Origin: Bacteroidales bacterium
Lineage (GTDB): Bacteria; Bacteroidota; Bacteroidia; Bacteroidales; VadinHA17
Reading direction: 5' to 3'
Length of the DNA: 64,000 nt
Assembly: GCA_034004115.1 (NCBI GenBank)
Contig: JAVEXG010000005.1
Coordinates: 2,657-66,656 of the forward strand
The stretch's first letter is position 1; each line of letters starts with the position of its first letter. The notes below the pieces were generated by a model. The model made no database searches, was not told the DNA's origin, and worked only from the letters and a program-made list of their open reading frames with translations. The translations under genes and the position numbers were made by a program. Shown here one piece after another: positions 153 through 59,908 of the stretch.

Positions 153-1640
153 ATGAAACTCACCTTACTTGACGCTGTAATTTTCTTCTCCCTCATAATC
201 GGGAATGTACTATTCGGGGCTTCCTTCTTTTTCAGGAACAAAACGTCGGACCAGTTCACAACGGGAGGCGGCAGAATTCCCGCGTGGGCAGTTGGCATGT
301 CTATCTTTGCGACCTTTGTAAGCAGCATAAGCTTCCTGGCCCTTCCCGGGAAAGCCTATGCATCGGACTGGAACTCGTTCGTATTCAGTCTCACAATACC
401 TTTCGCCGCCTACGCTGCGGTAAAATTCTTTGTTCCCCTCTACAGAAGCATCGGAAGCGTTTCCGCATACTATTACCTCGAACAAAGGTTCGGAGCCTGG
501 GCCAGGATATATGCTTCGGCCTGCTATGTACTGACCCAGCTGATGAGAACAGGTGCAATCCTTCTGCTTCTTGCTTTGCCCCTCAATGCCCTCTTCGGAT
601 GGGAAATCAGGAGCGTTATTATAATTACAGGTATAGCCGTGATCCTCTATTCAATGCTTGGCGGGATAAAGGCAGTGATATGGACAGACACGATACAGGG
701 AATAATCCTGATCCTGGGTGCACTGACCTGTGCCATTTTCCTTACTGTAAAAATGCCGGGGGGAGCCGGCCGCCTTTTTGAAATTGCTTCCGAACACAAC
801 AAATTCAGCCTTGGAAGCTTTGGGCCCAGTCTCAGGGATTCTACTTTCTGGGTGGTGCTGGTCTACGGTCTTTTCATAAACCTTCAGAATTACGGGATCG
901 ACCAGAACTATATCCAGAGATACATGAGCGCAGGTTCAGAAAGAGAAGCCAGGTCATCGGCACTGTTCGGATCACTGCTGTATGTACCTGTATCACTTCT
1001 GTTTTTCTATATCGGCACCGCCCTGTTTTCGTTCTACACCGCACAGCCCGGTCTTCTTCCCGCTGAATTGAGTGTCGCTGGTGCAGGTGACAGGGTGTTT
1101 CCCCATTTTATTGTAACCGGGCTGCCGGCAGGCCTGACCGGATTACTAATCGCGGCAATATTCTCAGCAGGGATGAGCACTGTGTCCACCAGCCTTAACA
1201 GCACTGCCACAATTTTCCTCACCGATTACTACAAGAGGTATTTCAACATTAAGGCAAGCGAAAAAGCTTCAATGAACGTACTGAGAATCTCTTCACTGAT
1301 AACGGGGCTTCTCGGAATCATAATTGCAATAATTCTCGTGGGAGTGGAAAGCGTCCTGGATGCATGGTGGGCCCTGGCCTCCATTTTCAGCGGCGGTATG
1401 CTGGGCCTCTTCCTGCTTGGTTTTATAGTTAAAAAATCAGGAAAAACAGAGGCAATTATCGGGGTGATTCTTGGTGTTATCCTGATTGTCTGGATGAGCC
1501 TCTCTCCCATCGTATTCACGGAAGGAAACATGGTGGCATTCAGAAGTCCCTTCCATTCCAATCTGACAATAGTGTTCGGCACCACAATAATCTTCCTGGC
1601 CGGATTTTTGATAACCAGTCTAATAAGAAAGAAAAAATGA
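153..1640 (+). CDS. sodium:solute symporter (SSS) family transporter
   Basis: 495-aa ORF with about 13 hydrophobic helices and an SSS-like layout. It shares a 4-nt ATGA overlap with the next gene, which suggests an operon. Confidence 0.8.
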   Translation: MKLTLLDAVIFFSLIIGNVLFGASFFFRNKTSDQFTTGGGRIPAWAVGMSIFATFVSSISFLALPGKAYASDWNSFVFSLTIPFAAYAAVKFFVPLYRSIGSVSAYYYLEQRFGAWARIYASACYVLTQLMRTGAILLLLALPLNALFGWEIRSVIIITGIAVILYSMLGGIKAVIWTDTIQGIILILGALTCAIFLTVKMPGGAGRLFEIASEHNKFSLGSFGPSLRDSTFWVVLVYGLFINLQNYGIDQNYIQRYMSAGSEREARSSALFGSLLYVPVSLLFFYIGTALFSFYTAQPGLLPAELSVAGAGDRVFPHFIVTGLPAGLTGLLIAAIFSAGMSTVSTSLNSTATIFLTDYYKRYFNIKASEKASMNVLRISSLITGLLGIIIAIILVGVESVLDAWWALASIFSGGMLGLFLLGFIVKKSGKTEAIIGVILGVILIVWMSLSPIVFTEGNMVAFRSPFHSNLTIVFGTTIIFLAGFLITSLIRKKK

Positions 1641-2716
1641 ATAAAATCATCCTGTCTGTCTGTTTTCTTATAAGTTGCGGCACACTAACCGCACAGCAGC
1701 CCTTCAGGGGCGAACAGTGCATCACTTTGAAGGAGTTCATCTATCAGCCGGAAGATGTCGCTTTCCCGAGTTGTCATGCCTCAACGATAGCTGAAATCGA
1801 TGGAGGATTAATAGCAGCCTGGTTTGGCGGGACCGCCGAGAAAAACCCGGATGTCGGGATATGGACAAGCAGGTTCATCGGCGGGAAGTGGGCCAGACCG
1901 GAAGAACCTGCCAACGGAATCAGGGGTGACAAGAGGTATCCCTGCTGGAACCCGGTTCTTTTCAACTCAGGTGACGAACTGCTTCTTTTCTTCAAAGTCG
2001 GACCAAGCCCTTCGGAATGGTGGGGCGAACTTATTGTCTCCGGCGACAATGGCATTTCATGGTCGGCGCCCAGAAAGCTTCCTGAGGGATTCATGGGACC
2101 TGTAAAAAATAAACCGGTAATGCTTGACAATGGGGTACTGCTTTGTCCGTCGAGTTCCGAACACGACGGATGGAGAGTCCACATGGAGATGACTCCCGAC
2201 TTCGGGATGACCTGGACGATGACTGAACCTCTGAATGACAAGAGCATATCAGCAATCCAGCCGTCAGTATTATTCCACGCCGGCGGAAAGCTTCAGATGG
2301 TTTGCCGCAGTAAGCAGTCCAGTATTCTTACTTCATGGTCACAGGATAAAGGCCGGACCTGGAGCAGGCTGAGTCCCCTGAGCCTTCCCAATCCCAATTC
2401 GGGAATAGATGCAGTGACCCTGAAGGACGGACGGCATATAATGGTTTACAATCACCTGAAATCAGGACGAACCATGCTCAATGTTGCAATCTCTGACGAT
2501 GGTATAAACTGGAAACCAGCCGCACTTCTCGAAAATGAGGACAAGGGAACTGAATTCTCTTATCCCGCCGTAATACAGACCGGCGACGGTATGATTCATA
2601 TTACATATACCTGGAACAGAAAACTCATAAAGCATGTGGTGGTTGATCCCGGGCTTATTAAAACCGCTGAATTCGGTACCGGCGGAGCCTGGCCGTCTGA
2701 AACCCGGGTAGACTGA
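1637..2716 (+). CDS. secreted BNR/Asp-box repeat protein, sialidase-fold (exo-alpha-sialidase-like)
   Basis: N-terminal signal peptide. Four Asp-box (SxDxGxTW) repeats are present: SGDNGISW, TPDFGMTW, SQDKGRTW and ISDDGINW. Confidence 0.75.
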   Translation: MNKIILSVCFLISCGTLTAQQPFRGEQCITLKEFIYQPEDVAFPSCHASTIAEIDGGLIAAWFGGTAEKNPDVGIWTSRFIGGKWARPEEPANGIRGDKRYPCWNPVLFNSGDELLLFFKVGPSPSEWWGELIVSGDNGISWSAPRKLPEGFMGPVKNKPVMLDNGVLLCPSSSEHDGWRVHMEMTPDFGMTWTMTEPLNDKSISAIQPSVLFHAGGKLQMVCRSKQSSILTSWSQDKGRTWSRLSPLSLPNPNSGIDAVTLKDGRHIMVYNHLKSGRTMLNVAISDDGINWKPAALLENEDKGTEFSYPAVIQTGDGMIHITYTWNRKLIKHVVVDPGLIKTAEFGTGGAWPSETRVD

Positions 2717-3970
2717 TCAATTACCCAGCGCCGGGAGTATAAGAAGTGCACCCGACAAAATAACAAGTATTCCCACAGCGCCCCATCCGATAATATTCTG
2801 GAAAGGCTTGTTCGTGTAGCTGCCCATGATCTTCTTATTGTTGATAAGCAGGATCATGCTTACAAGAACTACCGGAAGCAATATCCCGTTAAGAACCTGC
2901 GACCAGATGGATATGCCTATCAGAGGCGCATTGGGTATAAGAATTATTGCAGCTGAAATAACCAGTATACCGGTGTAAAGAACATAGAACTCCTTAGCCT
3001 CATCCAGCTTCTTGTCGATGCCTGCTTCAAATCCGAAGGCTTCGCATACATAGAAGGCGGTGGCCAGGGGAAGAATTGTCGCTGAAAATACCGATGCTAC
3101 AAACAGACCGAAGGCAAACACATGTGATGCAAGCCTTCCTGCCAGAGGCTCGAGCGAAAGGGCTGCATCGCTGGCTTCAGAGATCACTATCCCGTTTGGA
3201 AACAGCGTCGATCCGCAGGCAACCATAATGAAAAATGCTACGACAACAGTGATTATGCATCCTGCAACAATATCAATCACCGTGTATTTGTAATCCTTAA
3301 TCTTGAGCCCCTTTTCAATCACCGTTGCCTGCATGTAGAACTGCATCCAGGGAGCTATTGTAGTCCCGACAAGGGCAATTATAACGGTCAGACTCTGTGT
3401 ATTGATCTGAATACCCGGCCTGACTATGGCCGACCCGATCTCTCCCCAGTCGGGTTTTGCCATAAGCGCCGACACAACATAAGTCAGAAGCGAAGCGCTG
3501 AAAATCAGAAATATGCGCTCGGCAATCTTGTAGGTACCCTTTACAACCAGTAACCAGACAAGGATTGCAGCCACAGGAACGGAAATATACTTGCTCACAC
3601 CAAATATCTTCATGCTGCCTGCCACTCCTGCAAATTCCGTTGTGGTGTTGCCTATATTTGAAATCAGCAGACCTATAAAAATGAAGAAGGTTACCTTTAC
3701 ACCGGCATTCTCCCTTATCAGGTCCGACAATCCCTTCCCTGTCACTATTCCCATCCTGGCATTCATCTCCTGGATGACAAGAAGCACAATGAGTGACGGG
3801 ATCAGGGTCCAGATCATTCCATAACCGTACATGGCCCCTGCAACAGAATAGGTGGTTATGCCGCCAGCGTCATTATCGACGCTTCCAGTTATTATCCCCG
3901 GTCCCAGGAGTGCAAAAAAGATCGCCAGGTTCCTGAAAAAGCCGCTCTTGCCGATTTTTGTCCTGAACAT
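2717..3970 (-). CDS. NRAMP/SLC11-family divalent cation transporter, NRMT-like (Mg-type) variant
   Basis: Polytopic membrane protein. TM1 'GPGIITGSVDNDAGG' and TM6 'GTTIAPW' align to the NRAMP DPGN and GAxxMPH motifs, with N->G, A->T and M->A changes. The ATG is at 3970; the track start at 3973 is a GTG one codon upstream. Confidence 0.8.
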   Translation of the reverse strand: MFRTKIGKSGFFRNLAIFFALLGPGIITGSVDNDAGGITTYSVAGAMYGYGMIWTLIPSLIVLLVIQEMNARMGIVTGKGLSDLIRENAGVKVTFFIFIGLLISNIGNTTTEFAGVAGSMKIFGVSKYISVPVAAILVWLLVVKGTYKIAERIFLIFSASLLTYVVSALMAKPDWGEIGSAIVRPGIQINTQSLTVIIALVGTTIAPWMQFYMQATVIEKGLKIKDYKYTVIDIVAGCIITVVVAFFIMVACGSTLFPNGIVISEASDAALSLEPLAGRLASHVFAFGLFVASVFSATILPLATAFYVCEAFGFEAGIDKKLDEAKEFYVLYTGILVISAAIILIPNAPLIGISIWSQVLNGILLPVVLVSMILLINNKKIMGSYTNKPFQNIIGWGAVGILVILSGALLILPALGN

Positions 3971-3981
3971 CACCGATGCAC

Positions 3982-5256
3982 TTACCTCTTATATGTTCTT
4001 CTCTTGCTCATAAGGTCTTCGAGAACATCATCCACAACCACCATTCCCTGGAGAATGTTGTCGCGGTCAACAACGGGAACAGCCAGTAGATTGTATTTGG
4101 AAATAGTCTCGGCTATATCGTTGATTTTCTGATCATCATAAAGGAAGACAGGCACAGATTTCATCACACTGCCCAGAACCGTTTCAGGCTCTGCAATAAT
4201 AAGGTCGCTCAAACTGAATGTTCCTGCCAGCCTGTCATCTTCCTCAGTGACAAAAAGCGAATAGAGTTCGGAAGGTTCGGGCTTCCTTATACGGAGTTCC
4301 CTGATGACATCCTCAACTGTAAGTTCAGAACGGAACGACAGTACATCGGTGGTCATAAGCCCTCCTGCATGGTTATCAGGGTATTCGAGCAGTTCCCTTA
4401 CCTCCTGCGACACTTCACTGTCCATCTCCTTCAGAAGCAGCTCTGCCTTCTCATCCTCAATCTCATCCAGAATGTCGGCAGCCTCATCAGCAGGCATTTT
4501 TTCGAGAACATCGGCAGCCTTGGTGACCGGAAGGCTCTCTATAATATGTATCTGAGTCTGGGTTTCCATCTCTTCCAGAACATCGGCAGCCTTTTCCTCA
4601 TCAAGCGCTGAGAAGACCGACGTGCTGGATTTCCTTCCAAGATCTTCGATAATATCCGCCAGATCCGAAGGGTGAAGCGTATGAAGCTTTGCATAACTCT
4701 TTGAAAGCTTGATATTAAGGTTCGAAAAATCGATGGCCTGAACATCATCCCATAGTATGTATTTGGTGGGTATTTTCACCCTGAACAGAGATAGCACTCT
4801 CTGAATGGGAACCAGTATACCTATCCTGCGAAGGAGTCCGCCAATTCCAATATCCACCGCAACAGCAAACGTTCCGGTCGGAAGTGTGGCGAGTCTCACA
4901 TCATTCACCCTTACAAGCTTCCTTCCGTTCAGATCGACTATCTGCTTGTCCTGGATATTCTCACCCAGAAGCAAACCTCCGGCAATCTCTTCACTGCTTA
5001 GTTCAATCAGGTCGTAACAGGTCACACTGATACGTTCGCGGACTTTAACCACCCTGAATGTACTGAACGAATAAAGTTTTGTTTCCCTGCCAATTTTCAG
5101 CCTGATACCGGTTATAAGCTGCTGGTTGGGGTTGTTCTGACCTGAAGGTACGGCGTTGACCATAAGATCCCTGATCACGCCAATAACATCGCCATCGGCT
5201 CCGAATACCTCCTTGCCGGTTATTCCGCTTAAATAAAAAGTTGTGAGTGATGTCAT
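3982..5256 (-). CDS. soluble PRC-barrel + MgtE N-domain + tandem CBS protein (MgtE cytosolic module without a membrane domain)
   Basis: Acidic MgtE_N-like helices (ADVLEEM.., AADVLEKMPADEAADILDEIEDEKAELLL) are followed by two CBS-like repeats. No hydrophobic helices are present. The ATG at 5256 is preceded by GGAGGTGA; the track start at 5262 is a GTG inside that SD. Confidence 0.7.
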   Translation of the reverse strand: MTSLTTFYLSGITGKEVFGADGDVIGVIRDLMVNAVPSGQNNPNQQLITGIRLKIGRETKLYSFSTFRVVKVRERISVTCYDLIELSSEEIAGGLLLGENIQDKQIVDLNGRKLVRVNDVRLATLPTGTFAVAVDIGIGGLLRRIGILVPIQRVLSLFRVKIPTKYILWDDVQAIDFSNLNIKLSKSYAKLHTLHPSDLADIIEDLGRKSSTSVFSALDEEKAADVLEEMETQTQIHIIESLPVTKAADVLEKMPADEAADILDEIEDEKAELLLKEMDSEVSQEVRELLEYPDNHAGGLMTTDVLSFRSELTVEDVIRELRIRKPEPSELYSLFVTEEDDRLAGTFSLSDLIIAEPETVLGSVMKSVPVFLYDDQKINDIAETISKYNLLAVPVVDRDNILQGMVVVDDVLEDLMSKRRTYKR

Positions 5257-5257
5257 A

Positions 5258-5317
5258 GTCACCTCCTTTCTTTTACCGATATAGAAAGAGGTGACCAGCT
5301 GAATGGTCCCGCTCCTC
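5258..5317 (-). promoter_or_regulatory. 5' leader hairpin that sequesters a strong Shine-Dalgarno site
   Basis: Minus-strand RNA reads GGUCACCUCUUUC (5296->5284), a 13-nt loop, then GAAAGGAGGUGAC (5270->5258), U and AUG. This gives a roughly 12-bp stem with one bulge covering AGGAGG. The upstream GAGGAGCGGGACC (5317->5305) could pair instead with the anti-SD arm. Confidence 0.5.
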
Positions 5318-5487
5318 TACATCAGAGAATTAATTAATATACCCGCGGGGCCGTCGTCCATTTTGCTGTTAGAATTGATTTCGCGGCGTAAAAGTAAAAC
5401 CCGCGAAAGGAAATTCCAAATAAATAATAAGAAAGTTGAAAACGCTTCAGGTGTTAATGGCCTGAGGTCAGCAGAGGCAATAAATCA

Positions 5488-5973
5488 TCACTGGGCATCG
5501 GCCATTCTGGTCTTCTTAAGCAACAGGATTATCTTAAGGGCCTCATCGGCATGCTTCTGGACTTGAGTCTGAGATTTGAATACATAAATGATCCTTCCGG
5601 ATTTGTCGGCTACATAGGTAACCCGTCCGGCTACCAGTCCGAACATATGTGACGGAACGCCGAATAACTTCCTGACCTTGTCGTCAGTATCGCTCAGAAG
5701 AGTAAAATTCAGTCTGTTTATTTCTGCAAACTCCTTGTGACTTTCAACTGATTGTCCGCTTATGCCTATTACAACTGCTTCATTCTCATCAAACACGTCA
5801 TTGATGTCCCTGAAATAGCAAGCCTCCCTTGTACAGTACAGACTGCCGTCCCTGGGGTAAAAGAAAACAACCATATTCTTCTTCCCGATAACATCCCGGA
5901 TATGAAACATCTTCCCGTTCTGATCGGGAAGAGAAAAATCGGGAATCATATCTCCTGCCTTTAAAGAATTCAT
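5488..5973 (-). CDS. bcp: thiol peroxidase Bcp (peroxiredoxin Q type)
   Basis: AhpC/TSA fold with 'FFYPRDGSLYCTREAC' (peroxidatic Cys in the PxxxxxxC context). The start was moved to ATG 5973 (MNSLKAGD..); the track start is TTG. Confidence 0.8.
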   Translation of the reverse strand: MNSLKAGDMIPDFSLPDQNGKMFHIRDVIGKKNMVVFFYPRDGSLYCTREACYFRDINDVFDENEAVVIGISGQSVESHKEFAEINRLNFTLLSDTDDKVRKLFGVPSHMFGLVAGRVTYVADKSGRIIYVFKSQTQVQKHADEALKIILLLKKTRMADAQ

Positions 5974-30581: not shown

Positions 30582-31271
30582 TCATTCATGCGTTTTTCTG
30601 TAAAGACATTCTGTCCTCCGGCACGAACTGCAGGGATACGGATCGAAGTTTACATCTGCTCCCATGCCGATCAATCCGCTGACCGACTTTTCAGGGTTCA
30701 TAAGCGCCGAAGCGTTGAGACTGACTCCGCAGGAATTTCCGGGCATGAGTTCAAACAACCCGTGCTGTTCCGATACGTCCCATCCGCAATACCCCGGACT
30801 ATACCGGTTTGTAACCCTTAAACCTGAGATTTCAGCAGCTTTCCTCACTTCCTGAAGAACCAGCAGGGATGCACGTTCCGCAATCTCACTTCCTATCATG
30901 TCGTAAATATAGGAGGCCAGGGGATCTCCGTCTTCCATGGCCTTCCTGCAGAGTTTTTCAGGTTCCGGACCTGCCGTACAGATAAAGACGGCAAATGATT
31001 CTGCTTTCCTCACCTGTGAAAAGACAACATCTTTAAGACTAAAACCGGCCCCATGGATTATTACTGATTTCGCGGCATTCTTCCATTTCTCAACAGGATA
31101 TATCCTGTATTCGGCTTTTGCTGAACATACAGGGGCAACCTTGCCGATCAGCTCACGGATCAGACCGGAGAAATCATCAGCCTGATATCCTTCACCGTAA
31201 CCGAGTAGTCTGCCTATCCGTTCGCCATCGACGCCAAGTTCTGAAAAATCATATTGAAATGTGCCCATCAT
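30582..31271 (-). CDS. methionine-synthase activation (AdoMet-binding, Met_synt_B12-like) domain protein, stand-alone
   Basis: 229 aa. 'RYSPGYCGWDVSEQHGLFELM' and 'MNPEKSVSGLIG' resemble the MetH reactivation domain. The gene overlaps the stop of metVF. Confidence 0.6.
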   Translation of the reverse strand: MMGTFQYDFSELGVDGERIGRLLGYGEGYQADDFSGLIRELIGKVAPVCSAKAEYRIYPVEKWKNAAKSVIIHGAGFSLKDVVFSQVRKAESFAVFICTAGPEPEKLCRKAMEDGDPLASYIYDMIGSEIAERASLLVLQEVRKAAEISGLRVTNRYSPGYCGWDVSEQHGLFELMPGNSCGVSLNASALMNPEKSVSGLIGMGADVNFDPYPCSSCRRTECLYRKTHE

Positions 31272-32710
31272 TCCTGATCCAGTCCGGCTTCACGGACAAT
31301 CTTTCCAACAACATCTTCCCATCCCAGCGACATAAGGTGAATCCCGCTTATACCCTTTTTTTTCCTTAATGCCGTAATAATTTCAAGTGTTATTGCTATT
31401 CCCTCCTCACGGGCTCCGTCTCCTGCTTTTTCCATGCGACTGAGTATCTTTTCAGGAAGGTACACTCCGGGAACCTTCTCATGGAGGTAAAGCGCAGCCT
31501 TATAGCTTTTAAGCGGTACCAGCCCCACAAGAATACTTACCTTTCCGAGGACATTCCTCCTTTCAAGCTGTTCGAGCCAGGGGTCAAGCCTTTCCGGTTC
31601 GAAAATTATGTTTGTCTGAAAGAACTGGGCACCGGCGTTAACCTTTTTCTGGTCCCTTATTGCCTGAAGTTCAGGGTCAAGTGCAAAGGGTGTAGTTGCA
31701 GCACCAAGAAAATATGTGGGCGGATACTTCATCTTTCTACCGTCGAGGTAGATGCCCTCATCCCGCATTCTGCGGAGAATCCACAGCATCTGCACCGAAT
31801 CGAGATCGTTGATGTTCATATCGCTTGCCGGAGGAGGTCCCACTATGGGACTGTCTCCTGTGACACACAGTATGTTTCTTATCCCGAACTGTCCCGCTCC
31901 GATTGCATCCGCCTGCAGTGATATTCGTGTTGAATCGCGGGCGGCGATCTGAAATACAGGTTCCGCATTCAGATCGACTGCAACTTTGCAGCAGGCCAGT
32001 GCTGACATCTTCGGGATAGCTGATGAAGCATCAGTGAAATTTATTGCCTTTACATAAGGTCTTACCAGCTCTATGTCATTTTTAAGCTTTTCGGAAGAGG
32101 CACTCAGCGGCGGGGTCACTTCCGTGGCAACCACGAAGCGGCCTTCCCTGAGACTCTTCTCCATCTCCGAGGCCGGCTCCCTGTAAGCGGCCGGGTGATA
32201 CTCTGAATCGCCGTTCCACCATACTGGCTGCCTTACAGTTCTGAAAACCGAATCCCAAACCTGTTTTTTAAGCTCCTTGTCGCGCGAAAACAGCGATCCG
32301 ATGAATCTTCCGGTGCCTGTTCTTCCGATCTGACTGAATACATCAGCCCAGGTTTCGGTGCCTGTCCTGCTCCAGTCGAGTGGAGGCAGGACCTCCAGGA
32401 GAGTATCCTCACGTCCGATCTTCCTGGCCCGATAGTATATCGCGTGCCAGACGCATCTTCTTGTCGGGTCGACATAGCATTGTCCGTCGGGAGTGACACC
32501 ACCACAGGGTCCGTTTCTGAGACCTTTCGGGCACTCCATGCAGCATATGAAGGCTGTCTCCTGAAGAAGGCAATTGCCGCACATCCGGCAGCCCCATACC
32601 GGGCCCTTGACAATTATCTCGATCTTTTCACGGAAACGCTTTCCGAAAGTCTCCCTCTTGAACGGATAAAAGGGGGGTTGCCAACGACGGGCAGGCTTGA
32701 TAGCAGACAT
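31268..32710 (-). CDS. metF: fused MetV-like zinc-ribbon domain + methylenetetrahydrofolate reductase (MetF)
   Basis: The N-terminal 'CRMCGNCLLQETAFICCMECPKGLRNGPCGG' is an MTHFR_C/MetV-type Cys cluster. The C-terminal roughly 290 aa form an MTHFR TIM barrel. Confidence 0.75.
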   Translation of the reverse strand: MSAIKPARRWQPPFYPFKRETFGKRFREKIEIIVKGPVWGCRMCGNCLLQETAFICCMECPKGLRNGPCGGVTPDGQCYVDPTRRCVWHAIYYRARKIGREDTLLEVLPPLDWSRTGTETWADVFSQIGRTGTGRFIGSLFSRDKELKKQVWDSVFRTVRQPVWWNGDSEYHPAAYREPASEMEKSLREGRFVVATEVTPPLSASSEKLKNDIELVRPYVKAINFTDASSAIPKMSALACCKVAVDLNAEPVFQIAARDSTRISLQADAIGAGQFGIRNILCVTGDSPIVGPPPASDMNINDLDSVQMLWILRRMRDEGIYLDGRKMKYPPTYFLGAATTPFALDPELQAIRDQKKVNAGAQFFQTNIIFEPERLDPWLEQLERRNVLGKVSILVGLVPLKSYKAALYLHEKVPGVYLPEKILSRMEKAGDGAREEGIAITLEIITALRKKKGISGIHLMSLGWEDVVGKIVREAGLDQE

Positions 32711-32742
32711 ATATTAAGTTATTATAACTGAAGTTTAGGGCT

Positions 32743-33585
32743 TCAGGAATTGCGGCTTTGAAAATACTCAACAAATCTGATGGCAAAGTCATCCCTTCCC
32801 AGAACAAGATCGGCAGCCCGGGCGGCAGATGTTGATTTTTCAGGATTTGCTATTGGGCAGGTCACTCCGCAATAAACGGCAAGTGTCATGAAAGCCGCGT
32901 TAAGCGACTCCCTGTCGGGCAGCCCGAATGATATGTTGCTTGCTCCCATGGTTATGTTCATACCCAGCTTCCGGTGCAATTGTCGGATAGTCTCAAGTGT
33001 GACCACGCAGGCCTGAGGTTCGGCGCTTACGGCCATCGCCAGTGGATCGGCAATTACATCCTCAGCCCTGATTCCGGCCGCAACGGCTCTGTCGATAATC
33101 TTTTCTATTATCAACACCCGCTTTTCCGGATCGTTTGTGATCCCTTCATCATCCATGCACAAGCCTATGATCGCAGCACCATACTCCTTTGCAACGGGAA
33201 TGAGAGTCCTGAGGGACTCCTCCTTGCCGTTAACCGAATTGATAAGACATTTGCCTGCAGAAACCTTAAGCGCGGCTTCGATGGCTGACGGATTCGGGGA
33301 ATCGAGACAAAGGGGAATGTCAAAATTATCCTGTATGGCTGTCACAACTTCCGGAAGAAGCTTCGCATCATCAACCCCCGGATACCCGACATTAACATCG
33401 AGTATATCGGCGCCGGCCTTTATCTGGCTGGCTGCCAGTTCAAGCACATAGGAAAAATCTCCTTCCTGAAGGGAGGAGACCAGTTTCCGGCGGCGGGTCG
33501 GATTAATCGATTCGCCAATTATGATTACAGGACCATCGGTATCGATGATCACCTCCCTGGTCCTGCCTGAAAGAACTGTCTTCAT
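32743..33585 (-). CDS. pterin-binding methyltransferase (methyl-THF:corrinoid methyltransferase, AcsE/MetH-pterin-domain-like)
   Basis: 'IIGESINPT..', 'ADILDVNVG', 'LCLDS', 'LINSVNG' and 'GASNISFGLP' are DHPS-like pterin-binding motifs. The start was moved to ATG 33585, 2 nt after the upstream stop. Confidence 0.8.
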   Translation of the reverse strand: MKTVLSGRTREVIIDTDGPVIIIGESINPTRRRKLVSSLQEGDFSYVLELAASQIKAGADILDVNVGYPGVDDAKLLPEVVTAIQDNFDIPLCLDSPNPSAIEAALKVSAGKCLINSVNGKEESLRTLIPVAKEYGAAIIGLCMDDEGITNDPEKRVLIIEKIIDRAVAAGIRAEDVIADPLAMAVSAEPQACVVTLETIRQLHRKLGMNITMGASNISFGLPDRESLNAAFMTLAVYCGVTCPIANPEKSTSAARAADLVLGRDDFAIRFVEYFQSRNS

Positions 33586-33587
33586 GA

Positions 33588-34256
33588 TTAAACTGCAAAC
33601 TGTTTCAGATAATTTACTGCACCCTGCGGATCGGGGGAATAGAAATCGGCGCCAATCTTTTCGCAATACTCCCGTGTAACCGGAGCCCCGCCAATAAGTA
33701 TCCTGATTTCAGGATGCTTCTCCTTCAATGCAGCAACGGTCTTTTTCATATTCTCCATTGTAGTCGTGAGAAGGGCCGAAAGCCCTACAAAAGCGCCCGG
33801 ATTTTCCTCAATTGCCCTGAGGAACTTATCGGAGCTGACATCCACTCCAAGGTCGATAATCTCCCATCCGCCTCCCTCGATCATCATTGCAACCAGGTTC
33901 TTTCCTATGTCGTGCAAATCGCCGGAGACGGTGCCAATAATGAATTTCCCCTTCCGTTTGGTCTCGCCCGACTGAAAGAAAGGCTTCAGATGCTTCATGG
34001 AGCTGTTCATAGCCTTTGCAGCCATCAGCATCTGGGGAACATAGATCTCCTTACGGCTGAATCGTTCACCAACAGCAGCCATCGCAGGTATAAGCGCCTC
34101 ATCGAGTATCCTGGCAGGACCCAATCCTTCTTCTATAGCCAGTTTCGTAATCTCATCCGCTCCATCCTGCCCCTTCATTCCGGGAGGGTAAGGCGAAGCC
34201 TTGTCCGTTTTGCCTGACTCAACACACAGTGCGATCCGGGCCAGTATATCATCCAT
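33588..34256 (-). CDS. corrinoid (B12-binding) protein with cap domain
   Basis: Carries the DxHxxG motif 'SGDLHDIGKNLV', then 'GLSALLTTTM' (SxL) and 'ILIGGAPVT' (GG). Confidence 0.85.
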   Translation of the reverse strand: MDDILARIALCVESGKTDKASPYPPGMKGQDGADEITKLAIEEGLGPARILDEALIPAMAAVGERFSRKEIYVPQMLMAAKAMNSSMKHLKPFFQSGETKRKGKFIIGTVSGDLHDIGKNLVAMMIEGGGWEIIDLGVDVSSDKFLRAIEENPGAFVGLSALLTTTMENMKKTVAALKEKHPEIRILIGGAPVTREYCEKIGADFYSPDPQGAVNYLKQFAV

Positions 34257-34351
34257 AACTAAAATGATTGGTGCAATTTCGTTCTGAAAACCTTTAAGTC
34301 AATAAAAGCACGAAAATAATAAAATCAAAAGTAATTAATAATATTTGTTCA

Positions 34352-34365
34352 TGCAACCGATTGCA
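34352..34365. promoter_or_regulatory. LacI-type palindromic operator, site 3 (tGCAACCGATTGCa)
   Basis: Over 14 nt (ATGCAACCGATTGC) it is identical to the reverse complement of site 1. It lies 18 nt upstream of the minus-strand -7 box TACTTTTG (34333->34326) in front of the corrinoid operon. Confidence 0.6.
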
Positions 34366-34479
34366 AAATTATTTTAATTAAGATTTTTTAACCTTGAACG
34401 ACATTGCTTACATGAACTTCACCTATTTACCGCTGGCTCTTTTTACAACAGATTCTGACTTTCCTTAATTTGCAGGATT

Positions 34480-34529
34480 CAACACAAATTTCTTATCTTG
34501 TACTTTCTAAAAAATCAACTGACTTGAAA
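34480..34529 (+). repeat. 50-bp direct repeat, copy 1
   Basis: CAACACAAATTTCTTATCTTGTACTTTCTAAAAAATCAACTGACTTGAAA. It is 48/50 identical to 34971-35020. Confidence 0.9.
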
Positions 34530-34624
34530 ATTGCATCTCTTTTCCTGTTTTATGCGGTTTTTATGAACCCAAAAGAGTAACTGGCATACATCTAATCTAT
34601 TATGTAAAGTTTTAATGAAAAATT

Positions 34625-34886
34625 GGGTGTCTCGACCTGTGATTTTTTGGATGTTTGTTCGTCATGGTATGGGCAGTAACCGGGATCTCCAGCCTTGAGG
34701 GCTGGCCTTCCAGTAGCCCCGGTCCCATCCGGGGTGGGGGGCAATAATACCAATCCGACCCCGGAGGGGTGGCCTTCAATTTTCACATGTAATTGAAAGT
34801 CAACCCCTCCAGGGTTGTTCATCGTGTGTGGTGCTATCTTCCCGGGGTGAGACCCGGGCTACTGGAAGTCGACACCCCAGGTGTCG
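34625..34886. ncRNA. candidate structured RNA or MITE-like element (class unknown, strand unresolved)
   Basis: A GC-rich island in an AT-rich spacer. A perfect 13-bp long-range helix joins 34707-34719 and 34856-34868. Perfect local hairpins lie at 34689-34705, 34717-34734, 34761-34813 (nested 34775-34797), 34841-34858 and 34870-34886. Confidence 0.3.
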
Positions 34887-34970
34887 GAATAAGTTGAATT
34901 AATGTTTGGTCCGGTAGAAGTTCCTGAAAATATTAAACTCATCTTAACTTTGGGTGTCTTTCTCACAAAA

Positions 34971-35020
34971 CAACACAAATTTCTTATCTTGTACTTTCCA
35001 AAAAATCAACTGACATGAAA
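34971..35020 (+). repeat. 50-bp direct repeat, copy 2
   Basis: 48/50 identical to 34480-34529. It ends 87 nt before the 35108 start codon. Confidence 0.9.
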
Positions 35021-35107
35021 CCTCCATGTATTAGCATACACAAACAAAATAATATAATAATCACTTACATGGAGGTTCCATCATACCATTAAAATCAAAA
35101 TTTTATA

Positions 35108-36634
35108 ATGATGAAAACTATATCTCTTCTGTTCTGCCTTATGCTGTCGGGGACTGTCATGGCCCAGACTACTGCCACAGGAATATTTCAGGGAAATGCA
35201 GACATCGGGAATCCCGCACTAAAAGGCTCAGCCTCATACAACCCTGCCGATCAGTCCTATTTGCTGAAAGGATCAGGTTATAACATCTGGTTTGAAAGAG
35301 ATGAGTTCCGCTATGTTTTCAACCAGATCGAGGGTGATTTCATCCTCACTGCCAATTTCCGCTTTGAAGGCCAGGGAACAGATCCACACAGGAAAACCGG
35401 CTGGATGATAAGGGCTTCGGAAGATGAAGATTCCCAGCATATCTCAGCTGTGGTCCATGGCGACGGACTTACCGTGATGCAATGGCGCGATTTCAAGGGT
35501 GCTGAAATGAAGGACCCTGAAGATGAATTGTTTGCAAAGGGTTCCGGCTATGAAATAATCCAGCTCGAAAGGGCCGGAAAAATTATTTTCATGAGGGCGG
35601 CAGTTGCCGGTAAGCCTTTTGAGAATATCGGCTCTTACGCAATGGAAAATATGCCCGATAAAGTCCTTGCAGGATTGTTCATCGGCTCTCACAATCCAGA
35701 GGTGACTGAACAGGCCACCATCTGGAATGTAAGGATCGACAAGCCGGTCGGAGACAATTACAATGCCTCCAGGGACGGAGCTGTGGGATGCCGTCTTGAA
35801 ACCATGAATGTCTTCGACGGAAAAAGAACAGTGATACATGAAAAACAGGGAAGATTTGAGGCTCCGAACTGGATGCCCGACGGTAAACAACTGCTTTTCA
35901 ATATGGACGGATTAATGTACAAAATCCCTGTAACGGGAGGCGCTATAAGCCAGCTGAACACAGGCACGGTTAAAAGAAACAATAACGACCACGGAATATC
36001 CTTTAACGGAAAACTGCTTGCTATAAGCAGCTCCAAGGATGATGCAGCCGGAAAAGGCTCGGCAGTGTACGTTGTGAAGCTGAAAGGCGGGGAACCAAGG
36101 CTCGTTACCCCCGAAACACCCTCCTACTGGCACGGCTGGCACCCCAACAACAAGGAAGTGATTTATGTCGCCCAGCGCAAGGGGATACCCGTTTACAATA
36201 TTTACCGCAATTCGATAAAGGGAGGAAAGGAAGTGGCCCTGACCGATATTCCTGAAGGCGAACACGTTGACGGCTGTGAATATTCGCCCGACGGTAAATA
36301 TATTTACTACAACGGCAGTCATACCGGAAATATGCAGTTATGGCGCATCAATGCCGACGGAACAGGAAGGGAACAGCTTACCTTCGATGACTACAAAAAC
36401 TGGTTCCCCCATATTTCACCCGACGGAAAATGGATAGCTTTCATCTCATTCCCTCCGGATATCGAAAAGAACAGCCATCCATCATACAAGAGAGTCATGC
36501 TGAGGCTGATGCCTGCAGGGGGCGGTGAGCCGAGGGTGATTGCATATCTCTACGGCGGACAGGGAACCATAAACGTTCCATCGTGGTCGCCTGACAGCAA
36601 GCAGATTGCATTTGTCAGCAACTCGGGAAATTAA
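35108..36634 (+). CDS. secreted protein: lectin/glucanase-like N-domain + TolB-like beta-propeller
   Basis: Signal peptide. The C-terminal PD40-type repeats are 'YSPDGKYIYY', 'ISPDGKWIAFIS' and 'WSPDSKQIAFVS'. Confidence 0.6.
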   Translation: MMKTISLLFCLMLSGTVMAQTTATGIFQGNADIGNPALKGSASYNPADQSYLLKGSGYNIWFERDEFRYVFNQIEGDFILTANFRFEGQGTDPHRKTGWMIRASEDEDSQHISAVVHGDGLTVMQWRDFKGAEMKDPEDELFAKGSGYEIIQLERAGKIIFMRAAVAGKPFENIGSYAMENMPDKVLAGLFIGSHNPEVTEQATIWNVRIDKPVGDNYNASRDGAVGCRLETMNVFDGKRTVIHEKQGRFEAPNWMPDGKQLLFNMDGLMYKIPVTGGAISQLNTGTVKRNNNDHGISFNGKLLAISSSKDDAAGKGSAVYVVKLKGGEPRLVTPETPSYWHGWHPNNKEVIYVAQRKGIPVYNIYRNSIKGGKEVALTDIPEGEHVDGCEYSPDGKYIYYNGSHTGNMQLWRINADGTGREQLTFDDYKNWFPHISPDGKWIAFISFPPDIEKNSHPSYKRVMLRLMPAGGGEPRVIAYLYGGQGTINVPSWSPDSKQIAFVSNSGN

Positions 36635-59486: not shown

Positions 59487-59818
59487 TACTGGGCATTCTC
59501 GTATTTAACTATCTTAATTTGTGCGAATTCCGCAAAATGTTTCCTGAGAAACTTCCAGTTTTCATAATTAATACAATACTGAAGTTTTGGGGGGTCGATG
59601 CATCCCTGGATCAATCCGGCCTTCTTAAGCTCTGACAAGTGTTGAAATACAGTTGAATTAGCCAGAGACAGTTCATTTGAGATTTCAGTGAACCGGCAAG
59701 TGTCAAGTGAAGCCAGATGGCGCAGGATTGCTATCCGGGCAGGATGCCCAAGTGCTTTGGCAAACCGGGCTGTCTTAACATCTTCGGGAGGATAAGTATC
59801 CTTATTTGATGATTTCAT
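59486..59818 (-). CDS. arsR: ArsR/SmtB-family transcriptional regulator (copy 2)
   Basis: 'FAKALGHPARIAILRHL' and 'STVFQHLSELKKAGLI'. It is a paralog of 51893-52255 (both end ..YCIN..NW). The start was chosen at ATG 59818. Confidence 0.85.
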   Translation of the reverse strand: MKSSNKDTYPPEDVKTARFAKALGHPARIAILRHLASLDTCRFTEISNELSLANSTVFQHLSELKKAGLIQGCIDPPKLQYCINYENWKFLRKHFAEFAQIKIVKYENAQ

Positions 59819-59850
59819 CAGTATATATTTTGATTTTATAGGTCTGATGG

Positions 59851-59908
59851 AACCCACATGTTTGAAAATTATATACATACGTGTTTCTGAATTTGATACA
59901 TGTGGGTT
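59851..59908. promoter_or_regulatory. 11-bp inverted repeat AACCCACATGT ... ACATGTGGGTT upstream of arsR-2
   Basis: Perfect arms at 59851-59861 and 59898-59908, 33-90 nt upstream of the arsR-2 start. Confidence 0.4.

What the first reader, a model, noticed from the sequence alone, without database searches (positions are those of the whole stretch)
34480..35020. GC-rich multi-hairpin element flanked by 48/50-identical 50-bp direct repeats in an 851-bp gene-free gap
Direct repeats at 34480-34529 and 34971-35020 bracket a roughly 260-nt GC-rich island (34625-34886) within AT-rich spacer. The island can fold into a multi-branch structure. A perfect 13-bp long-range helix, CTTCCAGTAGCCC/GGGCTACTGGAAG, joins 34707-34719 and 34856-34868. 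An outer 5+5-bp helix joins 34625-34636 and 34868-34877. Five perfect local hairpins lie at 34689-34705, 34717-34734, 34761-34813 (with nested 34775-34797), 34841-34858 and 34870-34886. GGGTGTC recurs at 34625 and 34952, with GGTGTCG at 34880. Each could pair with GACACCC at 34871-34877, the kind of mutually exclusive pairing seen in switches. By eye it does not match cobalamin, SAM-I, TPP, THF or M-box riboswitches, nor RNase P, tmRNA, 6S or SRP RNA. The 76-aa ORF across it (34592-34822, minus) is Gly/Pro-rich and looks like a by-product of the hairpins. Each repeat copy sits about 90 nt upstream of something: copy 1 before the island and copy 2 before the 35108 start codon. It could therefore be a duplicated promoter or leader. 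Alternatively the repeats could be att-like or MITE ends around an inserted non-coding element.
Basis: seen in the sequence. Interest (0 to 1): 0.65.

Follow-up and report, generated by a model that had tools for sequence, protein, structure and literature searches.

The report
Hairpin-rich mobile element with 50-bp duplication
The GC-rich hairpin island is not a riboswitch-like RNA gene but a gene-less 441-bp copy of a many-copy mobile element related to REP/RAYT systems, and its insertion duplicated 50 bp of the target, an unusually long duplication that recurs across this element family.

Summary

- **Multi-copy.** Window 34530-34970 is a dispersed repeat: about 10-30x the flank depth for its arms and over 100x for its hairpin core, in eight public runs.
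- **Empty site.** A relative (L047, neighbouring protein 95% identical) has 359 nt instead of 851 nt between the same two genes. It carries one copy of the 50-nt repeat. Deleting 491 nt from the window restores end-to-end alignment (338/360).
- **Structure of the element.** It has about 18-nt terminal inverted repeats, two arms, and two inverted REP-like units (GTAG plus a GC hairpin). Those units account for the "13-bp long-range helix".
- **Parent element.** Full-length relatives carry, exactly at the central hairpin, a 150-aa HUH/Y1 transposase gene with the Y---Q--HH signature of subclass 1.2.
- **Recent movement.** One full-length copy (L002) sits between perfect 86-nt repeats, and a strain with identical flanks (L056) has an empty site.
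- **Recurrence.** Six of nine complete copies have 34-92-nt flanking duplications.

Known IS200/IS605 elements have neither terminal inverted repeats nor such duplications. Whether the Y1 enzyme drives the movement is inferred, not shown.

The parts
34480..34529 (.). Target-site duplication, copy 1 (50 nt)
   Evidence: 48/50 identical to 34971-35020. The relative L047 has a single copy at its empty site. Both mismatches are in this copy; copy 2 agrees with the empty site.
34530..34539 (.). 10-nt filler (ATTGCATCTC) between duplication copy 1 and the left end of the element
   Evidence: Absent from the empty site L047 and not shared with other copies of the element. Similar 7-17-nt fillers occur at junctions in L038 and L012.
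34540..34557 (+). Left terminal inverted repeat (TTTTCCTGTTTTATGCGG)
   Evidence: One mismatch to the family consensus TTTTCCTGTTTTGTGCGG. The same sequence in reverse complement ends the element in L036, L038, L012 and L059.
34540..34687 (+). Left arm of the element, including an invariant GGTGTC motif at 34626-34631
   Evidence: 92-94% identical in L009, L010, L033, L034, L036, L037 and L038. Other contigs' similarity starts at 34541-34544.
34689..34734 (+). REP-like unit A: hairpin 34689-34705, linker CCTTCCA, GTAG 34713-34716, hairpin CCCCGG-TCCCAT-CCGGGG 34717-34734
   Evidence: Sequence. It lies downstream of the Y1 gene in L007, L002 and L023-L032. A stem variant CCCGGG/CCCGGG in other copies stays complementary. 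Depth is about 100x the flank.
34758..34815 (.). Central hairpin, formed by the two sequences that flank the Y1 transposase gene in full-length elements. The deletion junction lies between 34777 and 34791.
   Evidence: 28-nt arms, 75% complementary. L007 169-258 matches 34688-34777 and L007 820-1002 matches 34791-34973, with the Y1 ORF between them. Contig joints that skip 554-565 nt of L007 are seen in four runs.
34841..34886 (-). REP-like unit B, inverted relative to A: hairpin 34841-34858, CTAC (GTAG on the minus strand) 34859-34862, hairpin CGACACC-CCA-GGTGTCG 34870-34886
   Evidence: Sequence. It lies upstream of the Y1 gene in relatives. It is the most repeated stretch, with depth up to about 250x the flank at 34860-34877.
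34887..34970 (+). Right arm with GGGTGTC at 34952-34958 and a truncated right terminal inverted repeat (TTCTCACAAAA; the consensus continues CAGGAAAAA)
   Evidence: 89-93% identical in L009, L010, L033, L034, L036 and L038. Other contigs diverge at 34972-34973. End comparison.
34971..35020 (.). Target-site duplication, copy 2 (50 nt)
   Evidence: Continuous with the right flank exactly as in the empty site L047.
34592..34822 (-). 76-aa ORF, not a gene
   Evidence: Its start (MNNPGGVDFQL) matches the nucleotide stretch upstream of the real Y1 start in L007 and L002 (MYNPGRVDFQL...MSTYTQ). The rest reads through the REP units.

Best explanation
**What it is.** Window 34530-34970 is a non-autonomous, gene-less (MITE-like) copy of a mobile element family of Bacteroidales.

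**Shown here:**
1. It is an insertion. Its arrival duplicated 50 bp of the target, 34480-34529 = 34971-35020.
2. The family has about 18-nt terminal inverted repeats, (TTTT)CCTGTTTTGTGCG.
3. Inside these are two conserved arms and a pair of inverted REP-like units. Each unit is GTAG followed by a 6-bp GC stem, next to a second small hairpin.
4. Full-length members carry a 150-aa HUH/Y1 transposase gene between the two REP-like units. The window copy has lost about 560 bp there, leaving the central hairpin.
5. The gene-less form is present at tens of copies per genome and the REP-like core at over 100. The Y1 gene is present at about 1-2 copies.
6. Long (34-92 nt), variable flanking duplications are a family trait. 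A full-length copy moved very recently.

**Inferred, not shown:**
- The Y1 enzyme, supplied in trans from the low-copy gene, recognises the GTAG hairpins and/or the ends as DNA and mobilises the element.
- Integration differs from the classical IS200/IS605 single-strand 'peel and paste', which leaves no duplication.
- The two element ends appear to be joined to target positions 34-95 nt apart on opposite strands, often next to an A-run, and the gap is then filled in. Fillers and truncated ends suggest a polymerase- or repair-dependent second step.

The hairpins are therefore recognition or structural DNA palindromes of a transposon, not an RNA switch.
For: **Multi-copy.**
- Depth over 34540-34970 is 300-5800 against about 23 in the flanks in run X18, which holds the window strain with 0 mismatches.
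- The same pattern appears in X7, X1, X4, X10, X12 and X16.

**Empty site.**
- L047 has 359 nt against 851 nt between the same genes.
- It aligns 338/360 once 491 nt are removed, and it holds one copy of the repeat.
- L048-L051 are also empty.

**Family anatomy and ends.**

**Y1 gene inside full-length copies.**
- ORFs in L007, L002 and L004.
- Pfam PF01797 at 46 bits, against a cut-off of 23.
- Invariant H54-x-H56, W95-Q96 and Y115-xxx-Q119-xx-H122 across homologues.
- Fold-search ranks 1-29 are all IS608, ISDra2 or IS200 TnpA.

**Gene copy number.** About 1-2x the flank depth in X18 and X7. The exact protein P0019 sits in one fixed neighbourhood in six samples.

**Long duplications.**
- Window 47/49, L034 84/91, L036 64/68, L038 33/34, L012 66/70. 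The highest score among about 300 random controls is 12.5, against 31-72 observed.
- L002 is 86/86.

**Recent move of the full-length element.** L056 has flanks 100% and 99.4% identical to L002, one copy of the 86-mer, and no element.

**Junction regularities.**
Against: - No experiment or read-level evidence links the Y1 protein to movement.
- The characterised relatives, IS200/IS605 TnpA and E. coli RAYT, act on single strands, and known IS200/IS605 members have no terminal inverted repeats and make no such duplications (PMC2817692). The chemistry proposed here therefore has no precedent.
- Terminal inverted repeats plus target duplication are the hallmark of DDE transposons, so an unlinked transposase could be the driver.
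- The arms and terminal repeats are absent around the Y1 genes of other lineages (L017-L032 have only the REP-like units). The arms and the Y1/REP core are therefore separable.
- Three of nine complete copies (L009, L010, L004) have no flanking duplication.
- No Y1 gene lies in the 64-kb window. Assigning the Y1 gene to the window's genome rests on depth ratios only.
- L059 carries an element end at exactly the target position used in L002. For that locus, an old insertion followed by loss through repeat-repeat recombination is an alternative to a pristine empty site. The perfect 86/86 repeats and identical flanks in L002 and L056 argue for a recent insertion.
Confidence: 0.8

Rival explanations
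1. The element is a conventional MITE. Its terminal inverted repeats are recognised by an unlinked DDE-type transposase of a kind that makes long, variable target duplications. The Y1 gene with its REP-like units is a passenger nested inside, not the driver.
For: Terminal inverted repeats plus target duplication are typical of DDE elements. The duplication abuts the terminal repeats, not the REP-like units. Y1 genes with REP-like units but without the arms exist in other lineages. REP-only clusters without arms show no long flanking repeats. From memory, not tested here: IS1634 and IS1549 (IS4 family) make long variable duplications.
Against: The recently moved 1.25-kb unit in L002 encodes only the Y1 protein. 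Every arm-bearing copy contains REP-like units or their remnants. No transposase gene bounded by these ends was found in the window or in 61 loci. Fillers, truncated ends and 34-95-nt variability are unlike clean DDE strand transfer.
Confidence: 0.2
2. The copies spread without a dedicated transposase. Replication template switching or microhomology-mediated repair copies an existing element into a stalled fork and re-replicates a stretch of the target. This is 'insertion with long target duplication', as described for restriction-modification genes.
For: The duplications are variable in length. There are 4-5-nt A/T-run microhomologies at junctions, fillers of 7-17 nt, and truncated ends. Some targets end at terminator-like hairpins (L034, L038). 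Insertion with more than 30 bp of duplication and no mobility gene is documented in many bacteria (PMC2853133).
Against: The element ends are sharply defined and are inverted repeats conserved over unrelated loci. That implies recognition of the ends rather than random break points. Tens of copies share the same ends.
Confidence: 0.1
3. The island is a cis-regulatory or stand-alone structured RNA (a switch with mutually exclusive GGGTGTC/GACACCC pairings), and the repeats are a duplicated promoter or leader.
For: Folding is very stable (z about -6). The GGTGTC motifs are invariant in eight copies. Stem changes are compensatory. Known REP elements can affect mRNA stability or termination once transcribed (background in PMC3733652).
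Against: There is no Rfam match. Both strands fold equally well. The island is absent from the orthologous site in relatives with 95% and 87% identical neighbouring proteins. The same sequence lies next to unrelated genes at tens of loci and has a transposase gene in its middle in full-length copies. The repeat is single-copy in the empty site.
Confidence: 0.03
4. The 50-bp repeats are attL/attR of a small integrative element inserted by a site-specific recombinase.
For: Direct repeats of this length flank integrated elements, and the empty site has one copy.
Against: The flanking repeats at other copies have unrelated sequences and different lengths, so the element carries no attP copy. No integrase is present. 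No tRNA lies at the site.
Confidence: 0.01

Closest known systems
REPIN / REP-RAYT systems (REPtrons; Nunvar 2010 PMC2817692, Bertels and Rainey 2011 PMC3116915)
   Same: GTAG-tagged GC-rich palindromes. Two units in inverted orientation form a long hairpin. There are hundreds of copies per genome against a low-copy Y1 (HUH) gene that is itself flanked by the same units in inverted orientation. JGI annotates the protein family as 'REP element-mobilizing transposase RayT'.
   Different: The protein has the class 1 / subclass 1.2 signature Y---Q--HH, not the class 2 RAYT motif Y..(L/N)NP (PMC6006769). The stem is 6 bp with a 6-nt loop, outside the published REP descriptor (PMC6006769). The mobile unit has extra arms ending in terminal inverted repeats and is flanked by 34-92-nt target duplications. 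Neither feature appears in the REPIN papers consulted here.
TnpA-Y1 subclass 1.2 (Quentin et al. 2018, PMC6006769)
   Same: About 150 aa, an HUH motif, WQ, the Y---Q--HH motif, a Bacteroidetes host, and low copy number.
   Different: That study listed no REP association for subclass 1.2 and concluded it 'does not share IS properties'. Here the gene is flanked by GTAG hairpins that are highly repeated. In one lineage it lies inside a unit with terminal inverted repeats that has moved recently.
TIRtrons / TIRYT (Di Nocera et al. 2013, PMC3733652)
   Same: A Y1 transposase gene bracketed by terminal inverted repeats whose sequence is also repeated elsewhere in the genome.
   Different: Most described TIRYTs belong to subclass 2.1, have HTH domains, and carry a GGGGWSAS repeat motif (PMC6006769). 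Neither applies here. A text search of that paper found no mention of target duplication.
IS200/IS605 insertion sequences and their gene-less derivatives
   Same: The fold and catalytic motifs of the transposase, hairpins inside the element, and gene-less derivatives.
   Different: IS200/IS605 members lack terminal inverted repeats and make no target duplication (PMC2817692). The protein scores 29.5 bits against the NCBIfam IS200 cut-off of 55. The gene is low-copy and in a fixed position.
'Insertion with long target duplication' of restriction-modification genes (Furuta et al. 2010, PMC2853133)
   Same: An insert flanked by more than 30 bp of variable-length direct repeats that are single-copy in the empty allele.
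   Different: Those inserts are single events with no defined ends and no mobility gene. Here the same ends recur at many loci and a candidate enzyme is encoded inside.

Membership tests
REPIN / REP-RAYT system | GTAG (or GTGG) tetranucleotide 0-2 nt 5' of a GC-rich palindrome | tested here: met
   GTAG at 34713-34716 is followed directly by CCCCGG-TCCCAT-CCGGGG, and the mirror unit is at 34841-34862. It recurs in dozens of distinct copies. The stem (6 bp) and loop (6 nt) fall outside the published descriptor of stem at least 7 and loop 2-5 (PMC6006769).
REPIN / REP-RAYT system | Two REPs in inverted orientation forming one hairpin; high copy number | tested here: met
   Inverted arms 34696-34734 / 34841-34879. 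Depth is 100-250x the flank in X18 and similar in six other runs.
REPIN / REP-RAYT system | Low-copy cognate Y1 gene flanked by the same REPs | tested here: met
   L007, L002 and L023-L032. Depth is about 1-2x the flank in X18 and X7. P0019 has one fixed neighbourhood. Assignment of the gene to the window's own genome is by depth only.
REPIN / REP-RAYT system | Transposase of the RAYT clade (class 2, Y..NP-type tyrosine motif) | tested here: not met
   The motif is YIQDQEEHH (Y---Q--HH), which is subclass 1.2 (PMC6006769). The fold search ranks IS608, ISDra2 and IS200 TnpA above RAYT 4ER8, which is rank 30.
IS200/IS605 insertion sequence | HUH/Y1 transposase | tested here: met
   PF01797 at 46 bits, cut-off 23. 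Invariant HxH and Y. Fold match.
IS200/IS605 insertion sequence | No terminal inverted repeats and no target duplication | tested here: not met
   Terminal inverted repeats. Duplications of 34-92 nt with two empty sites.
IS200/IS605 insertion sequence | Scores above the NCBIfam IS200 equivalog cut-off | tested here: not met
   NF033573 scores 29.5 bits against a cut-off of 55.
[quoted passage not shown] | Small, non-coding, multi-copy, with terminal inverted repeats | tested here: met
   441 nt. The only ORF is spurious. Multi-copy. Terminal repeats are present in the family, but the window's right one is truncated.
[quoted passage not shown] | Flanking target-site duplication, verified by an empty site | tested here: met
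   50 nt, with L047 empty. The length is 5-25 times that of usual MITE duplications.
[quoted passage not shown] | A longer element with the same ends that encodes a transposase | tested here: met
   L002 1486-2735 has the same ends and a Y1 gene. That this gene is the active transposase is not tested.
Riboswitch / curated structured RNA | Match to a curated covariance model | tested here: not met
   No match at gathering threshold over the whole window. The best permissive hits are microRNA models at E of about 0.6-0.8.
Riboswitch / curated structured RNA | Conserved position relative to the regulated gene in relatives | tested here: not met
   Absent upstream of the orthologous genes in L047 and L048-L051.
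Riboswitch / curated structured RNA | Discrete strand-specific transcript | not testable with these tools
   The only 'RNA' runs that hold the locus are labelled metagenomic, are kept as contigs, and show flat depth like DNA runs.
Integrative element with att sites | The same attachment sequence at every copy, plus an integrase | tested here: not met
   The flanking repeats are unrelated between loci, and there is no integrase.
Insertion with long target duplication (PMC2853133) | Direct repeats longer than 30 bp flanking the insert and single-copy in the uninserted allele | tested here: met
   Window against L047. L002 against L056.

The most novel reading that the evidence does not exclude
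Subclass 1.2 HUH/Y1 proteins of Bacteroidales were previously described as low-copy, not IS-like and without associated repeats. Here they may be the transposases of a family of elements with terminal inverted repeats, and of its abundant gene-less derivatives. These elements integrate with 34-95-bp variable target duplications. That mode of integration is not known for any Y1 enzyme. It could also explain 'insertion with long target duplication' more generally.
Probability: 0.4. Interest if true: 0.8.

Novelty: new variant of a known kind. Interest (0 to 1): 0.6.

Why it matters
- **For annotation.** It removes a false ncRNA or riboswitch candidate. It also explains a class of GC-rich hairpin islands in the AT-rich intergenic regions of Bacteroidales from digesters, manure and sludge.
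- **REP/REPIN movement.** How REP/REPIN-type repeats are moved by their Y1 enzymes is still unresolved. This family offers filled and empty site pairs, defined ends, a very recent move of a full-length copy, and a single candidate enzyme.
- **Long target duplication.** The origin of 'insertion with long target duplication' has been unexplained since it was first noticed in genome comparisons. Here it is a recurrent property of one element family, which makes it testable.
- **Reclassification.** If the Y1 protein is responsible, known HUH transposition chemistry would have to be extended beyond single-strand 'peel and paste'. Subclass 1.2 would then be reclassified from 'not IS-like' to mobile.

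Tried and rejected
- **Rfam.** Nothing at gathering threshold on the whole window or at permissive threshold on 34250-35120. The hits were microRNA and speF models at E of about 0.6-7.
- **tRNA/tmRNA.** None in 34000-35300.
- **Other copies in the window.** None found.
- **Promoter and terminator scan.** No more sites than shuffles give.
- **Y1 gene in the window.** tblastn found none.
- **PDB sequence search with the Y1 protein.** Only spurious hits. The fold search was informative instead.
- **Plasmid collection.** No DNA match, and only distant protein matches at 35-37% identity.
- **Empty-site alleles as contig joints.** None across eight runs for the window locus. Four runs for L002 gave only ambiguous depth ratios.
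- **Same-species contigs.** All carry the filled site. The empty sites came from more distant contigs.
- **Metagenome scan with a left-arm 24-mer.** Only 6 loci.
- **RNA evidence.** No usable strand-specific run.
- **62-nt extension of the repeat.** Rejected as chance.
- **Target consensus at the six duplication boundaries.** No clear motif beyond A/T-runs.
- **Literature.** Searches found no description of a Y1-associated element with long duplications.
Full report
**1.

The gap between the corrinoid-protein gene (33588-34256, minus strand) and the TolB-like gene (35108-36634, plus strand) is 851 nt.
- The repeats 34480-34529 and 34971-35020 are 48/50 identical, and nothing like them is expected by chance.
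- GC rises to 0.54-0.59 between about 34650 and 34900, against 0.21-0.35 around it.
- The island folds far better than shuffles, but on both strands: z = -6.0 on the plus strand and -6.5 on the minus strand.
- Rfam has no match at either threshold, and there is no tRNA.

**2. The island is one copy of a dispersed repeat.**

I laid Logan contigs of public runs on the region.
- The flanks have single-copy depth: about 23 in X18, a run that carries the window strain without mismatch.
- 34536-34970 has depth 300-500 over the outer parts and 2400-5800 over 34680-34715 and 34842-34895.
- Six further runs from digesters, manure, soil, landfill and wastewater show the same profile.
- The arms run at roughly 10-30 times the flank depth in most of these very different communities. 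That argues the copies lie in the same genome.
- Contigs from other loci begin to resemble the window at 34541-34544 and stop at 34972-34973, exactly between the two direct repeats.
- The window itself holds only this one copy.

**3. Anatomy of the family.**

A scan of one genome per species with the most repeated 20-mer, and a metagenome scan with a left-arm 24-mer, gave loci in Bacteroidales and Rikenellaceae MAGs. Eight copies align over their whole length.
- The conserved element runs from (TTTT)CCTGTTTTGTGCGG to CGCACAAAACAGG(AAAAA). These are terminal inverted repeats of 13-18 nt. The window's right repeat is truncated.
- Inside are a 148-nt left arm and an 85-nt right arm, each with an invariant GGTGTC.
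- Between the arms lie two units in inverted orientation. Each unit is a small hairpin, then CTTCCA, then GTAG, then a 6-bp GC stem with a 6-nt loop.
- Across copies the GC stem comes as CCCCGG/CCGGGG or CCCGGG/CCCGGG and is always complementary.
- The interior varies. L009 and L010 have internal deletions, and L007, L015, L016 and L002 have tandem amplified sub-units of 65 or 80-85 nt.

**4. The parent element carries a Y1 transposase gene.**

In L007, L002 and (broken) L004, the two halves of the window element are separated by about 560-600 bp. The halves are 34688-34777 and 34791-34973. The intervening DNA encodes a 150-aa protein on the opposite strand.
- It matches Pfam Y1_Tnp (PF01797) at 46 bits, against a cut-off of 23.
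- It scores below the NCBIfam IS200 equivalog cut-off, 29.5 against 55.
- Across 31 homologues the invariant residues include N53-H54-x-H56, W95-Q96 and Y115-xxx-Q119-xx-H122.
- A moderate-confidence model (pLDDT 67) matches only IS608, ISDra2 and IS200 TnpA structures in ranks 1-29. The E. coli RAYT is rank 30.
- The Y---Q--HH signature, the length of about 150 aa, the host phylum and the low copy number match "subclass 1.2" of Quentin et al. 2018. That study listed no REP association for it and concluded it lacks IS properties (PMC6006769).
- JGI labels members of the family "REP element-mobilizing transposase RayT".
- The central hairpin of the window copy (34758-34815) is what remains when the gene is deleted. 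The 76-aa ORF is a by-product.
- The gene is low-copy. Its depth is about 40-54 against 23 in X18, while the REP-like units reach 1000-4500. Contigs that skip 554-565 nt, the gene-less form, are present in the same runs.
- The exact protein P0019 lies in one fixed neighbourhood in six samples.
- In other lineages (L017-L032) the gene is flanked by the REP-like units, sometimes in clusters of eight, but without the arms.

**5. The 50-bp repeats are a target duplication, and long duplications are a family trait.**

- L047 has a TolB-like protein 95% identical to the window's and the same gene order. Its intergenic region is 359 nt.
- Removing 491 nt from the window gives an end-to-end alignment of 338/360. 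L047 has a single copy of CAACACAAATTTC...CTGACATGAAA, continuous with both flanks.
- More distant relatives, with the protein 87% identical, are also empty. All contigs of the window's own species are filled.
- The inserted piece is 34530-34970: a 10-nt filler plus the element.
- Of nine copies with both ends available, six have long flanking repeats directly at the ends:

| Copy | Flanking repeat (identical / aligned nt) |
|---|---|
| window | 47/49 |
| L034 | 84/91 |
| L036 | 64/68 |
| L038 | 33/34 |
| L012 | 66/70 |
| L002 | 86/86 |

- About 300 random control pairs in the window score at most 12.5, against 31-72 for the five gene-less copies and 87 for L002. L009, L010 and L004 have none.
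- The repeat sequences are unrelated between loci, which excludes att sites.
- The L002 copy is full-length, about 1.25 kb with an intact Y1 gene.
- L056 has flanks 100% and 99.4% identical to L002, one copy of the 86-mer and no element. A gene-carrying unit therefore moved very recently.
- In a relative with the neighbouring protein 87% identical (L059), an element end sits at exactly the same target position. Another relative (L060) is empty. This points either to a preferred site or to an older insertion with losses.

**6. Junction details (observations).**

- The sequence just outside both ends is A- or purine-rich. It reads CAAAAC-AGG-AAAAA in 11 of 21 ends.
- At several junctions the A-run or T-run is shared between the element end and the target.
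- Fillers of 7-17 nt occur in the window, L038 and L012. The 9 nt after the L002 right end align imperfectly (5/9) with the target.
- Truncated ends occur in the window and L034.
- No further target motif is evident from six cases.

**7. Interpretation.**

*Shown.* The island is a gene-less, MITE-like member of a mobile family. It was inserted with a 50-bp duplication, and its hairpins are the REP-like palindromes of that family.

*Inferred.* The low-copy Y1 enzyme mobilises it in trans.
- Known IS200/IS605 members lack terminal inverted repeats and make no such duplications (PMC2817692). The REPIN papers I consulted describe neither.
- Integration here must therefore differ from the classical pathway.
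- The most economical geometry joins the two element ends to target positions 34-95 nt apart on opposite strands, followed by fill-in. The irregular second junction suggests polymerase or repair involvement.

*Rivals.*
- An unlinked DDE transposase acting on the terminal repeats.
- Transposase-independent template switching, as in the "insertion with long target duplication" described for restriction-modification genes (PMC2853133).
- TIRtrons (PMC3733652) are the nearest described arrangement of a Y1 gene within terminal inverted repeats, but they involve a different protein subclass.

**8. Verdict.**

The finding is real but is not an RNA element.
- For the locus itself, the answer is an ordinary kind of thing: a MITE/REPIN-like insertion.
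- The family behind it is unusual in three ways: a subclass 1.2 Y1 gene tied to repeats, terminal inverted repeats, and long variable target duplications backed by two filled/empty site pairs.
- I rate it a new variant of a known kind, with interest 0.6.

Noticed in passing
window 35066-35112 (+) and 59811-59860 (-): A conserved leader of about 45 nt lies directly upstream of two start codons (CATGGAGGTTCCATCATACCATTAAAATCAAAATTTTATAATGATGAAAA against CATGTGGGTTCCATCAGACCTATAAAATCAAAATATATACTGATGAAAT). In metagenome contigs, 35075-35116 reaches depth 100-2900 against 18-25 in its flanks, so it is shared by many loci or organisms. Its 5' part pairs with 35015-35030. It is not in Rfam.
   Followed up: partly
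window 30582-34256 (minus strand): A gene cluster for a corrinoid-dependent methyl transfer system lies next to the insertion: B12-binding protein, pterin-binding methyltransferase, MTHFR with DUF5981, and a Met_synt_B12-domain protein. The order is conserved in relatives.
   Followed up: no
L059 1-110 compared with L002 2700-2745, L056 and L060: Two lineages whose neighbouring proteins are 87% identical carry an element end at exactly the same target position (CAGG followed by AAAAAATC). Their closest relatives are empty. This indicates either a preferred insertion site or an old insertion with later loss.
   Followed up: partly
L023 1970-2130, L027 1990-2130, L012 225-270 and 870-905: Short tandem arrays lie directly beside the REP-like clusters or targets: a 7-nt unit CTGTGC(C/T) repeated more than 20 times in L023 and L027, and a 9-nt unit GTCGTGCAA in L012.
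   Followed up: no
L007 3-197; L015 6868-7077; L016 6411-6605; L002 2400-2640: Sub-units of the element are amplified in tandem: 65 nt three times in L007 and 80-85 nt three times in the others. This resembles the mosaic arrays (BIMEs) of enterobacterial REPs.
   Followed up: no
L017 353-2117 and L022 536-1893: A group II intron-type reverse transcriptase (L017) and rve-type integrase genes (L017, L022) lie immediately upstream of the Y1 gene. They are absent from other samples with the same Y1 neighbourhood.
   Followed up: no
L034 flanks (oriented), L038 and L033 downstream flanks: Several insertions sit at or inside terminator-like hairpins followed by T-runs, for example AAAAAGAGGTGCC...GGCACCTCTTTTT in L034. 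This hints at a preference for gene ends.
   Followed up: no
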